This document shows, in pieces, positions 52,301 to 55,300 of a stretch of DNA of 64,000 bases. Location: the NCBI RefSeq assembly GCF_054482595.1, contig NZ_CM137008.1. One strand, 5' to 3'. Position 1 is the first letter of the stretch; every line of letters begins with the position of its first letter. A program made the position numbers.

Positions 52301-55300
52301 GGTTTCTGTGACGTTCCAGGTTGATATTCACCCGGCAGCAAAAATTGGTCGCGGTATCATGCTTGACCACGCCACGGGTATCGTTGTGGGTGAAACGGCG
52401 GTGATTGAAAACGACGTGTCGATTCTGCAATCCGTCACCCTTGGCGGTACTGGGAAAACTAGCGGCGACCGTCACCCGAAAATTCGTGAAGGCGTGATGA
52501 TTGGCGCGGGCGCGAAGATTCTCGGCAATATTGAAGTTGGTCGCGGCGCGAAGATTGGCGCAGGTTCCGTGGTGCTGCAACCGGTGCCGCCGCATACCAC
52601 CGCCGCTGGCGTTCCGGCACGCATTGTCGGTAAACCAGACAGCGATAAGCCATCAATGGATATGGACCAGCATTTCAACGGTATTAACCATACATTTGAG
52701 TATGGGGATGGGATCTGATGTCCTGTGATCGTGCCGGATGCGATGTAATCATCTATCCGGCATGGCGTAACTAATCTCTCAACACCGCTCCCGGATATCC
52801 CAGCTGCCGCCAGGCTTCATACACCACTACCGACACCGCATTGGACAGGTTCATGCTGCGGCTGTCTGGCACCATCGGAATGCGAATTTTTTGTTCAGCG
52901 GGCAGGGCATCAAGAATGCTCGCTGGCAGGCCGCGTGTTTCCGGGCCGAACATCAGATAATCGCCATCCTGATAGCTTACGGCGCTGTGAGCAGGCGTAC
53001 CTTTCGTGGTGAGGGCAAACAGGCGCTGGGGATTTTCTGCTTCGAGGAACGCGCTGTAGTCATGATGACGCGTAACGGCGGTAAACTCGTGATAGTCCAG
53101 CCCCGCGCGGCGCAGGCGCTTATCGTCCCAGGCAAATCCCATCGGTTCGATGATATGCAGACGAAAGCCGGTATTAGCGCAAAGACGGATGATGTTGCCA
53201 GTATTTGGCGGAATTTCTGGTTCGTAAAGTACGATGTTTAGCATACTGCCCCCTTAGTGCGGGGGCAGGATAGCAGAAAATTGGTGAACCGTGCGGCCTT
53301 TTCCCCTCACCCCGGCCCTCCCCCTGTCTCTTGATCAGGAGATCTGATCAAGAGACAGCTCCCTGAGGGAGAGGGTTAGGGGGAGGGGGCGCAAACGACT
53401 ATGCCGCATTCCCTTTCGCCATGGGAGCCAGTGCCGCAGGCAACTCTTTACCCAGCCCCTGCACCAGCGAATCTTGCGTAATTTCGCTGATCGATTTCGC
53501 GCCAGTCAGCGTCATCGCCACTTTCATCTCTTTTTCGATCAGATTTAGCAGGTTAGCTACACCCGCCTGGCCCGCTGTTGCCAGCGCATACAGGAAAGCA
53601 CGACCCAGCAGTACGGTGTCGGCACCGAGCGCAATCATACGCACGACATCAAGCCCGTTACGAATTCCGCTATCCGCCAGAATGGCTATATCACCTTTCA
53701 CCGCATCTGCAATAGCGGGCAACGCACGAGCGGAAGAGAGTACACCGTCCAGCTGGCGGCCACCGTGGTTAGAAACTACAATCCCATCAGCACCAAAACG
53801 TACTGCATCGCGCGCATCTTCCGGATCGAGGATCCCTTTGATCACCATCGGGCCATCCCAGAAATCGCGGATCCACTCAAGGTCTTTCCATGAGATGGAC
53901 GGATCGAAGTTATTCCCCAGCCAGCCGATGTAATCTTCCAGTCCGGTCGGTTTGCCGAGGTAAGCCGAAATATTTCCTAAATCATGCGGACGACCGTTCA
54001 GGCCCACATCCCACGCCCATTGCGGATGCGTCACCGCCTGCAAATAGCGGCGCATTGCCGCGTTCGGGCCGCTCATTCCAGAATGCGCATCACGATAACG
54101 CGCTCCCGGTGTCGGCATATCCACGGTGAAAACCAGCGTCGAACAACCCGCTGCTTTTGCTCGCTCCAGCGCGTTACGCATAAAGCCGCGATCGCGCAGT
54201 ACATAAAGCTGGAACCACATTGGGCGCTTGATGGCTGGCGCGACTTCTTCAATCGGGCAAACGGAAACCGTCGAGAGAGTAAACGGAATGCCATGCGCAT
54301 CCGCCGCTTTGGCTGCCTGAACTTCGCCGCGTCGCGCATACATGCCACACAAACCTACCGGACCTAGCGCCACCGGCATCGACAATTTCTCATTAAACAG
54401 CGTCGTTTCCAGGCTTAAGTCGGACATGTTTTTCAGAATACGCTGGCGCAGCGCCACTTCTGACAAATCTTCCACGTTGCGGCGCAGCGTGTATTCAGAA
54501 TATGCACCCCCATCCATATAGTGGAACAGGAACGGCGGCAGAATGCGTTGCGCTGCGGCGCGATAATCGCTGGCTGCGGAAATAATCATGCGTTTTTCTC
54601 CCTCGAATGCTCATTATGCTCACCGGGCAGGCGGGTAATCCGTGCGTGGCGAGCCTGATCTTCATCGAATCGTTTCATGGTGGTGTGAACAAAACTAAGG
54701 TGCGCCATCATTGCTTTACGCGCCCCGTCGGCATCACCAGCAAAAATGGCGTCAATGACAGCCTGATGTTGTTCGGTCAGTTGTGAAAAAACCGGTGGCA
54801 CCAGATACATCCGCTGACGGCTATGCTTCACTGAGGATTGCAGGACATCGAAGAAACCGCGCATGGTTTGCAGCAGCACGATGTTATGTGAGGCTTCGGC
54901 AATCGCCAGATGAAAACGAACGTCCGCTTGTGAGGCGATATCCGGGTCTTCACTTAGCGTTGCTTCAAAGCAAAGCTGAATCTTTTCTTTGTCGCCAGGT
55001 GTGGCGCGCATTGCCGCATGCCATGCGGTGCTGGCTTCAATGGCGTAGCGGGCTTCCAGAATATCGAAACTGTAATCCGGATCATCGGCCATCAGCGTTT
55101 TTAGCGGCTGGACGATGTTTTGCTCCGACCATGTGTCATGACGCCAGCGAATAAACGTCCCGCCGCCGCGTCGACTGAGCAGCACGCCTTCGCTCACCAG
55201 TTTTGCCAGCGCCTCGCGCAGTGAATTACGCGATACGCCGAGTTGCATCGCCAGTTGACGTTCAGCGGGCAACTTCATGCCCGCTTCCAGGTTTTTTTCA

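What the first reader, a model, noticed from the sequence alone, without database searches (positions are those of the whole stretch)
53299..53390. 35-bp perfect palindrome between trmL and lldD whose arm matches the Tn5/IS50 inside end
At 53324..53358 the sequence is CTGTCTCTTGATCAG-GAGAT-CTGATCAAGAGACAG, a perfect 15-bp inverted repeat with a 5-nt spacer. Read on the minus strand it begins CTGTCTCTTGATCAGATCT, which matches all 19 bp of the IS50 inside end as I recall it, including its two GATC Dam sites. It is embedded in a larger imperfect palindrome with a C-rich left arm and a G-rich right arm, lies immediately 3' of lldD and is followed by no U-run, so it is not a simple intrinsic terminator. 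Possibilities are a member of a known GC-rich intergenic repeat family (possibly BoxC-like), a transposase-end-derived miniature element, or a scar of IS50-family activity; a 19/19 match by chance is unlikely. I cannot tell which from the sequence alone.
Basis: partly seen in the sequence, partly recalled or inferred. Interest (0 to 1): 0.55.

Follow-up and report, generated by a model that had tools for sequence, protein, structure and literature searches.

The report
ISEc13 end relic inside BoxC repeat
The 35-bp perfect palindrome downstream of lldD is the leftover right end of a Tn5-like insertion sequence (ISEc13 family) that once landed in the middle of a GC-rich BoxC repeat; it is an ordinary, probably inert scar carried by about 15% of E. 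coli genomes, although the same 35-bp form recurs in similar hairpin repeats in other enterobacteria.

Summary
Window 53324-53358 is a perfect 15/5/15 palindrome, and its minus strand carries the IS50 inside end 19/19. The better match is ISEc13, an IS4-family element whose transposase is a full-length Tn5-transposase homologue (E 4e-82). Bases 53326-53358 (33/33) equal the ISEc13 right end, including the last seven transposase codons and the stop.

The outer C-rich and G-rich arms are a BoxC/TMECO repeat. Deleting the 39-bp insertion restores the published consensus on both strands.

The allele is natural and single-copy. It is present at lldD-trmL in at least 797 of 5426 complete E. coli genomes, including BL21(DE3) and ATCC 8739. 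K-12 carries a different 73-bp filler, found in 2714 genomes. No genome has a full IS at this site.

The identical transposase-less 35-mer occurs at 13 or more independent loci in Serratia, Rahnella, Budvicia, Salmonella and Escherichia, mostly inside GC-rich hairpin repeats. At one site it replaces a full IS copy.

It has no U-tract, no Rfam match and no promoter. The most likely reading is an immobile IS scar that lengthens the lldD 3' hairpin. How the stereotyped 35-mer forms is unresolved.

The parts
53324..53358 (.). 35-bp perfect palindrome (15-nt arms, 5-nt spacer GAGAT). It is a transposase-less miniature remnant of an ISEc13-family insertion sequence and holds three GATC (Dam) sites at 53333, 53341 and 53346.
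   Evidence: The same 35-mer lies at independent loci in other genera.
53326..53358 (+). 33 bp identical to the right end of ISEc13: the last codons of the transposase (K)SLDQEI*, then the terminal inverted repeat ending ...GAGACAG.
   Evidence: L001, L002, L004.
53340..53358 (-). 19-mer CTGTCTCTTGATCAGATCT. It is both the ISEc13 right terminal inverted repeat and the IS50/Tn5 inside end (19/19).
   Evidence: a real Tn5 junction
53324..53325 (+). The dinucleotide CT that extends the IS's native 13-bp quasi-palindrome to a perfect 15-bp one. Full IS copies have AA here (a Lys codon).
   Evidence: In plasmids 361 of 363 right ends start at base 3, and only the transposase-less copies have CT.
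53303..53323 (+). Left half of the interrupted BoxC/TMECO repeat (C-rich blocks CCCCTCACCC CGG CCCTCCCC). On the minus strand it supplies blocks 2-3 of a type-B ('CCG') TMECO.
   Evidence: consensus from PMC4666352
53359..53388 (+). Right half of the BoxC/TMECO repeat: CTCCC TGA GGGAGAGGG TTA GGGGGAGGG. The first 7 nt, CTCCCTG, repeat the sequence that spans the left junction (53320-53326, with one T>C change in this window).
53399..54589 (-). lldD (L-lactate dehydrogenase). Its stop codon lies 10 nt from the outer arm.
52771..53244 (-). trmL (tRNA 2'-O-methyltransferase), the downstream gene on the same strand.

Best explanation
The palindrome is a dead relic of an ISEc13-family insertion sequence. 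ISEc13 belongs to the IS4 family, IS50/Tn5 group.

Proposed history: a full element inserted into the central stem-loop of a BoxC (PIT/TMECO) repeat in the lldD-trmL spacer, probably with the target duplication CTCCCTGAG. Later the whole IS interior, including the transposase gene, was lost. What remains is the 33-bp right end plus CT, which completes a perfect 15/5/15 palindrome.

The loss most likely came from a replication error driven by the IS's own terminal quasi-palindrome. Two routes are possible. One is deletion between the heptamer GTCTCTT at positions 3-9 of the left end and the same heptamer 33 bp from the right end. The other is a fold-back template switch that copies the right tip onto the left.

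In this genome the element has no transposase source nearby, is single-copy, and most probably does nothing except lengthen the already very stable GC-rich hairpin in the lldD 3' untranslated region.

Shown: the sequence identities, the restoration of BoxC on removal, the population distribution, and the recurrence of the 35-mer elsewhere. Inferred: the order of events, the deletion mechanism and neutrality.
For: - The 33/33 identity to the ISEc13 right end includes the transposase's last codons. Identity to IS50 stops at 19 bp.
- The ISEc13 transposase is a full-length homologue of Tn5 transposase (E 4e-82; NF033590).
- The ISEc13 left end is CTGTCTCTTATACACAAAT. Its first 9 nt equal those of the right end, so the 7-bp microhomology exists.
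- Removing 39 bp restores the TMECO consensus on both strands. The restored hairpin equals K-12's right-hand unit.
- Eleven genomes carry the exact 7-bp repeat CTCCCTG across both junctions.
- The allele sits at the same junctions in at least 797 genomes and in gut metagenomes. This fits one old event.
- L001 (a plasmid with a full but frameshifted IS) and L032 (Salmonella diarizonae, with the 35-mer) share both junction flanks, so they are one site in two states.
- Intermediate remnants exist: 85 bp (L021), 281 bp (L028) and truncated 3' fragments (L010-L012).
- CT occurs only in transposase-less copies.
- There is no Rfam family, no promoter and no U-tract.
Against: - No E. coli genome shows the intermediate full IS at lldD-trmL; all 5420 genomes with the locus have it in one piece. 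No plain empty BoxC allele was seen either.
- The direct repeat at the junctions is only 4 bp if the element's own CTG is excluded. A 9-bp duplication therefore requires an extra 5-bp loss.
- At most other 35-mer loci no direct 9-bp duplication is visible, and the flanks look inverted or unrelated.
- The spacer is flipped between L001 and L032.
- Exact recurrence of one deletion product at 13 or more loci is more than a simple rare-deletion model predicts.
- Neutrality is assumed, not tested.
Confidence: 0.78

Rival explanations
1. The 35-mer is a non-autonomous miniature transposon (a very short MITE). It has two inside-end-type termini and is moved in trans by ISEc13-family transposase. Under this reading it arrived at lldD-trmL by its own transposition.
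For: It has perfect 15-bp terminal inverted repeats, each carrying the first 15 bp of a functional end. Identical copies lie at 13 or more unrelated loci in five genera, five of them in one Serratia silvae assembly that shows no full IS with this end.
Against: There is no consistent 9-bp target duplication. The two 19-bp ends overlap and sit 5 bp apart; from what is known of the Tn5 synaptic complex (own knowledge), they cannot be looped into one paired-end complex. E. coli has a single locus among 5426 genomes, and no gain was seen at a tested hairpin site. At the L001/L032 site the mini sits exactly where a full IS sits.
Confidence: 0.08
2. A hairpin repeat (BoxC-like) that once acquired the IS remnant then propagated it, either by whatever mechanism spreads that repeat family or by gene conversion between family members. 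On this view the 35-mer is a passenger of the host repeat and not an independent scar at each locus.
For: Nearly all the minis sit in the same kind of GC-rich hairpin. Inner flanks are shared between loci within a genome: CCCTGTGGGAGAGGG in L021, L023 and L025; CTCCCTCCCCTGCGA|35|TTCGCAGGGGGAGG in L039 and L053. A roughly 30-bp flank is shared by L001, L032 and L017 across genera.
Against: Junction registers differ among the Serratia copies. In E. coli only one of the roughly 23 or more BoxC copies carries it (copy number from PMC4666352). Arms of about 20 bp are short for RecA-dependent conversion (own knowledge). This rival explains the spread in other genera, not the origin at lldD-trmL.
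Confidence: 0.1
3. It is a selected regulatory RNA or DNA structure: a terminator, an mRNA 3' stabiliser, or a protein or Dam-dependent switch between lldD and trmL. Its resemblance to an IS end would then be secondary.
For: In lldD sense the region folds into one long hairpin (MFE -86 kcal/mol for 166 nt, z -5.7). It holds three GATC sites in 35 bp. It is kept almost unchanged in at least 797 genomes.
Against: There is no U-tract and no Rfam family. Half of E. coli genomes have an unrelated 73-bp filler and a third have no BoxC at all at this site, so the sequence is dispensable. BoxC/PIT elements were reported to lack promoter and terminator activity (as summarised in PMC4666352). The K-12 allele folds just as stably.
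Confidence: 0.03
4. It is a laboratory scar of Tn5-based engineering, or a chance palindrome.
For: There is a 19/19 match to the Tn5 inside end used in mini-Tn5 tools.
Against: It is present in hundreds of natural isolates and in gut metagenomes. The bases beyond the 19-mer match ISEc13, not IS50. The chance expectation is 0.01 per window.
Confidence: 0.01

Closest known systems
ISEc13 (IS4 family, IS50 group), right end
   Same: 33/33 bp identical, covering the terminal inverted repeat and the last transposase codons. The 35-mer's first 9 bp also equal the first 9 bp of the ISEc13 left end.
   Different: No transposase gene, and no left end beyond 9 bp. It is 35 bp long against about 1.55 kb, and the Lys codon AA is replaced by CT.
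IS50/Tn5 inside end (IE)
   Same: 19/19 identity, including the GATC sites known to make IE use Dam-sensitive (own knowledge; PMC3347997 for Dam effects on transposon ends).
   Different: Identity ends at bp 19. IS50 has ...GGGATCAAGATCT..., with no hairpin partner. E. coli K-12 has no such sequence at this locus.
BoxC / PIT / TMECO repeats of E. coli (Bachellier et al.; Maher lab; PMC4666352)
   Same: The outer arms fit CCCTCNCCC N3-6 GGGNGAGGG N3 GGGNGAGGG once the insertion is removed. The repeat is intergenic, and the locus varies strongly between strains, as reported for TMECO loci.
   Different: Here the repeat is split by IS-derived DNA. The TMECO paper states that no transposase remnants were found next to these motifs in the strains it examined.
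IS-derived MITEs and solo terminal repeats; insertion sequences that target palindromic repeats (IS1397/ISKpn1 in BIMEs; REP-targeting IS, Tobes & Pareja 2006; own knowledge)
   Same: Terminal inverted repeats of a known IS without a transposase. The parent IS group often sits in hairpin loops (L004, L002, and Budvicia 7 of 8 copies).
   Different: It is far shorter than described MITEs, has no clear target duplication, and is single-copy in E. coli. Several ISEc13 copies are not in hairpins.
Quasi-palindrome template-switch mutations (Ripley model; own knowledge)
   Same: An imperfect 13-bp palindrome in the IS becomes a perfect 15-bp one. The spacer can appear flipped (L001 against L032).
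   Different: Here the event would also have to remove about 1.5 kb. This was not demonstrated.

Membership tests
IS50-group terminal inverted repeat (Tn5 inside end) | 19-bp end sequence CTGTCTCTTGATCAGATCT | tested here: met
   19/19 at 53358..53340. The same 19-mer lies at the real IS50L/aph(3')-IIa junction.
IS50-group insertion sequence (complete element) | DDE transposase gene between two inverted ends about 1.5 kb apart | tested here: not met
   Only 35 bp are present. No transposase ORF lies between lldD and trmL, and only the last 7 codons survive.
IS50-group insertion sequence (complete element) | 9-bp direct target-site duplication | tested here: inconclusive
   The 7-bp repeat CTCCCTG spans both junctions but includes the element's own CTG. 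The strict flank repeat is 4 bp. Intact copies show 8 bp (L004) and 7-8 bp (L028).
ISEc13 | Right-end sequence including the transposase C-terminus | tested here: met
   33/33 against L001, L002 and L004. NCBI names the gene product an ISEc13-family transposase.
ISEc13 | Left end CTGTCTCTTATACACAAAT | tested here: not met
   Only the shared first 9 nt are present; ATACAC... is absent.
BoxC / TMECO | Consensus CCCTCNCCC N3-6 GGGNGAGGG N3 GGGNGAGGG in the sequence as it stands | tested here: not met
   There is no match anywhere in the intact 64-kb window.
BoxC / TMECO | Same consensus after removal of the 39-bp insertion | tested here: met
   It matches on the + strand (type A, TTA loop) and on the - strand (type B, CCG loop) for every register of removal. 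K-12 has both units intact at this locus.
MITE | Terminal inverted repeats matching a known IS | tested here: met
   15-bp perfect arms, equal to the first 15 bp of the ISEc13 right end.
MITE | Multiple copies per genome with target duplications and filled/empty polymorphism | tested here: not met
   E. coli has one locus only and no empty BoxC allele was found. Other genera have several loci but no consistent duplication.
Intrinsic terminator | GC-rich hairpin followed by a U-tract | tested here: not met
   The hairpin is present. The sequence after it reads GGGGAAAAGG, and the scan finds no proper site.
Any curated RNA family (Rfam 15) | Score at or above the gathering threshold | tested here: not met
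   The best score is 28.5 bits against a threshold of 80, from generic hairpin models.

The most novel reading that the evidence does not exclude
The 35-mer is not a random scar. It is the stereotyped end-product that ISEc13-group elements leave when they sit in palindromic repeats such as BoxC/TMECO. It would form by fold-back template switching at the IS's own terminal quasi-palindrome, or alternatively be spread as a passenger or ultra-short MITE. If so, Tn5-like elements repeatedly visit and remodel BoxC-type hairpins across Enterobacterales. That would give a concrete cause for part of the reported hypervariability of TMECO loci.
Probability: 0.3. Interest if true: 0.5.

Novelty: new member of a known kind. 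Interest (0 to 1): 0.3.

Why it matters
For this window it settles an odd-looking feature. It is IS debris in a known repeat, not a new regulator.

- It puts a perfect Tn5 inside-end pair into the chromosome of common strains, including BL21(DE3). That is worth knowing for Tn5-based work and for read mapping and adapter trimming.
- It is a counter-example to the published statement that BoxC/TMECO repeats are never associated with transposase remnants.
- The recurrence of one exact 35-bp product in hairpin repeats of five genera hints at a reproducible way in which IS50-like elements collapse. This could be tested in a strain that carries ISEc13 in a hairpin.

Tried and rejected
- **RNA family, promoter, terminator:** the Rfam scan gave only sub-threshold hairpin noise. 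The sigma-70 and terminator scans found nothing usable.
- **Viral contigs:** the 35-mer is absent.
- **Empty-site comparison:** for the Escherichia sp. MOD1 minis, the folA-downstream region is a different island in E. coli, and L035 has no orthologue.
- **Plain uninterrupted BoxC allele at lldD-trmL:** none was seen among the top hits. Rows beyond the 25 listed could not be inspected.
- **A 35-mer at the ybaY-ybaZ hairpin, where a full ISEc13 exists:** none in 5424 genomes.
- **K-12 73-bp filler as a repeat family:** rejected; it is single-copy.
- **Strict hairpin targeting by ISEc13:** rejected as a rule, because copies in Nissle, O55/O157/O103 and FEX669 have non-palindromic flanks.
- **Ungapped scoring of direct against inverted flank symmetry:** uninformative, because of 1-2-nt register shifts and near-palindromic loops.
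- **Literature:** no paper contains the 35-mer, and ISEc13 appears only in element lists.
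Full report

Yes. Window 53324-53358 reads CTGTCTCTTGATCAG-GAGAT-CTGATCAAGAGACAG. The repeat finder reports 15-nt arms that are 100% complementary with a 5-nt spacer. It also reports an outer imperfect inverted repeat, 53303-53325 against 53366-53388, 23 nt and 78% complementary.

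The minus strand 53358..53340 is CTGTCTCTTGATCAGATCT. This is the only match in the window even with 3 mismatches allowed, against 0.01 expected by chance.

In plasmid pSTM6-275 the sequence ...GGGATCAAGATCTGATCAAGAGACAG directly abuts the aph(3')-IIa leader. The 19-mer is therefore the IS50 inside end. Primer sequences in PMC5458577 and PMC12310338 agree.

The ORFs and matches to annotated genomes place the element between lldD (53399-54589, minus) and trmL (52771-53244, minus).

**2. What the core is**

A search of 5426 complete E. coli genomes with the locus also hit short stretches inside genes annotated as IS4 or IS4/Tn5-family transposases. Reading those hits (L001, L002) shows ...GGTTACCTGGTGATGAAGTCTCTTGATCAGGAGATCTGATCAAGAGACAG followed by unrelated DNA. 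The 33 bp GTCTCTTGATCAGGAGATCTGATCAAGAGACAG, equal to window 53326-53358, are the last codons of a transposase (K-S-L-D-Q-E-I-stop) plus the terminal inverted repeat.

NCBI names the intact gene an 'IS4-like element ISEc13 family transposase'.

An intact copy (L004) is bounded by CTGTCTCTTATACACAAAT on the left and ...AAGAGACAG on the right. Comparison with the empty K-12 site shows an 8-bp duplication, CCGCCCGG, in the loop of the ybaY/ybaZ hairpin AACCCTCTCC-GCCC-GGAGAGGGTT.

The 457-aa protein aligns end to end with Tn5 transposase structures (1MUH, 1MUS, 4DM0; E 4e-82) and matches NF033590. Its left end is 17/19 identical to the Tn5 outside end and 17/19 to the mosaic end, using the sequences in the oligonucleotide table of PMC3347997.

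Identity between the window and IS50 stops at bp 19. Identity to ISEc13 runs 33/33. The core is therefore ISEc13-family DNA, not IS50.

**3. What the arms are**

PMC4666352 defines BoxC (also called PIT or TMECO) as CCCTCNCCC N3-6 GGGNGAGGG N3 GGGNGAGGG, with 23 copies in MG1655.

The intact window has no match to this consensus. Deleting the 39-bp insertion in any of its equivalent registers restores the consensus on both strands: type A (TTA loop) on plus and type B (CCG loop) on minus.

The restored centre, CCCTCTCCC-TGA-GGGAGAGGG, is identical to K-12's right-hand unit at this locus.

**4. Population picture**

- All 5420 genomes with the locus have it in one piece, so none carries a full IS there.
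- The spacer is polymorphic. The alleles seen are the palindrome allele, a K-12 type and an O157 type that both contain a 73-bp filler, and two short alleles without BoxC.
- The palindrome with its flanks is present in at least 797 genomes. These include BL21(DE3), ATCC 8739 and O145 RM9872. It also appears in 13 of 16 metagenome hits.
- The filler is single-copy and present in 2714 genomes.
- Small variants share the same junctions: T>C in the left flank, one C fewer, or a 10-bp loss in the right flank. This argues for one old event.
- Eleven genomes have the exact form GGCCCT[CTCCCTG]TCTC...GACAG[CTCCCTG]AGGG.
- Strain XH990, identical over 701 bp, has no other copy of the right end on its chromosome. 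The relic is therefore an orphan there.

**5. The same 35-mer elsewhere**

An exact search for the 33-mer in one genome per species returned 23 loci.

Where a transposase gene precedes the 33-mer, the two bases before it are AA. At loci without a transposase they are CT, which gives the identical 35-bp palindrome. Those loci are:

- Serratia silvae, five loci
- S. proteamaculans
- Budvicia aquatica
- Salmonella diarizonae
- Escherichia sp. MOD1-EC7003, two loci
- two further locus types in metagenomes
- Rahnella aceris pRAHAQ01

Among 363 plasmid records with the right end, only the two transposase-less ones have CT.

Most of the minis sit between the halves of GC-rich hairpin repeats, of the form CCCTCTCCC-loop-GGGAGAGGG or CTCCCTCCCC-TGCGAA-GGGG. 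Full copies often do too: L004, L002, three E. whittamii ends, and seven of eight Budvicia ends in one repeat in both orientations. This is not a rule, because several E. coli island copies are not in hairpins.

L001 (plasmid, full but frameshifted IS) and L032 (Salmonella, 35-mer) share the flanks on both sides, although homology ends about 30 bp out. One insertion site is thus seen in both states. This is the most direct evidence for reduction in place.

Longer remnants also exist: 85 bp (L021), 281 bp with a 7-8-bp duplication (L028), and truncated 3' fragments.

**6. How the 35-mer could form (inference)**

The IS ends in a quasi-palindrome, AAGTCTCTTGATCAG-GAGAT-CTGATCAAGAGACAG. The heptamer GTCTCTT also occupies positions 3-9 of the left end.

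- **Route 1.** A deletion between the two heptamers gives exactly CT+33 and keeps both flanks.
- **Route 2.** A nascent strand could fold back at the quasi-palindrome, copy the tip (AG to CT) and re-anneal further left. This would also explain the flipped spacer in L032 and the flanks that look like reverse complements (L025, L039, L053).

Neither route fits all junctions. No consistent direct 9-bp duplication is seen, junction registers vary, and some inner flanks seem to travel with the element.

At lldD-trmL, the simplest history is as follows. The IS inserted with the duplication CTCCCTGAG. The interior was then lost. A 5-bp slip (AG+CTG) at the left junction followed. This history is plausible but not shown.

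**7. Function**

In lldD sense the spacer folds into one long hairpin (MFE -86 kcal/mol for 166 nt, z -5.7). The K-12 allele folds as stably (-92.7 kcal/mol). A third of genomes have no BoxC at this site at all.

There is no U-tract, no promoter and no Rfam family. BoxC/PIT elements were reported to lack promoter and terminator activity (summarised in PMC4666352).

I therefore regard the element as neutral. At most it adds 15 base pairs to an existing 3' stem-loop. The three GATC sites and the intact 19-bp end mean that a Tn5-type transposase could bind it in a dam-hypomethylated state. This is inference only.

**8. Comparison with what is known, and novelty**

The element works like any IS remnant or solo end. 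It is not a member of 'IS' (no transposase, no left end) and not an intact BoxC. It is too short and too unduplicated to be filed as a MITE.

I found no paper containing the sequence, and ISEc13 appears only in element lists. The TMECO paper states that no transposase remnants were found near these motifs.

My verdict is an ordinary kind of object in a specific, undescribed instance. The open side question is why the same 35-bp product recurs in hairpin repeats of five genera.

**9. Scores**

- Interest: 0.3
- Novelty: new member of a known kind
- Confidence that the core is ISEc13-derived DNA in a BoxC repeat: high, about 0.9
- Confidence in the full best explanation, including inertness and origin by in-place reduction: 0.78

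Noticed in passing
window 53243-53271: On the trmL sense strand a hairpin, CTGCCCCC-GCACTAA-GGGGGCAG (11-nt arms, 91%), ends at the trmL ATG and encloses the likely Shine-Dalgarno sequence. It is conserved in all five locus alleles, including the short B2 allele, so it may control trmL translation.
   Followed up: partly
window 52727-52762 (-): A weak REP-like match (Rfam naRNA4/CssrE, 23.7 bits, E 0.098) lies in the cysE-trmL spacer.
   Followed up: no
L003 (K-12 MG1655) 2019-2215: At this locus K-12 has two inverted BoxC/TMECO units separated by a filler. The 73-bp single-copy filler is bounded by a 9-bp direct repeat, CCCTCTCCC, and contains a U7 run in lldD sense. It is present in 2714 of 5426 genomes. 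It could be an older insertion into the same hairpin, or the ancestor of the palindrome allele.
   Followed up: partly
L028 892-1172 (Rahnella perminowiae): A 281-bp internally deleted member of the same IS group, with left end CTGACTCTTATACACAAAT and the same right end, carries a 7-8-bp duplication GCGAAGG in a hairpin loop. It looks like a conventional MITE-sized derivative.
   Followed up: partly
L013-L020 (Budvicia aquatica): Seven of eight right ends of the IS abut one repeat in either orientation (gttgaaaaacggggt or gtttttcaacggggt). This points to insertion into the loop of a host hairpin repeat. The contigs break inside the IS.
   Followed up: partly
L001 3034-3056, L032 2255-2343, L017 6489-6555: A roughly 30-bp flank (…ttttgtctatggaaaacccccagccaggct) lies next to the IS or 35-mer in an E. 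coli plasmid, Salmonella diarizonae and Budvicia, although the surrounding DNA is unrelated. The spacer orientation differs between L001 and L032.
   Followed up: partly
L054 (CP061233.1, 'plasmid pSTEC639_1', 1.0 Mb): This PLSDB 'plasmid' carries cysE-trmL-lldD with the palindrome. It looks like a chromosome segment filed as a plasmid.
   Followed up: no
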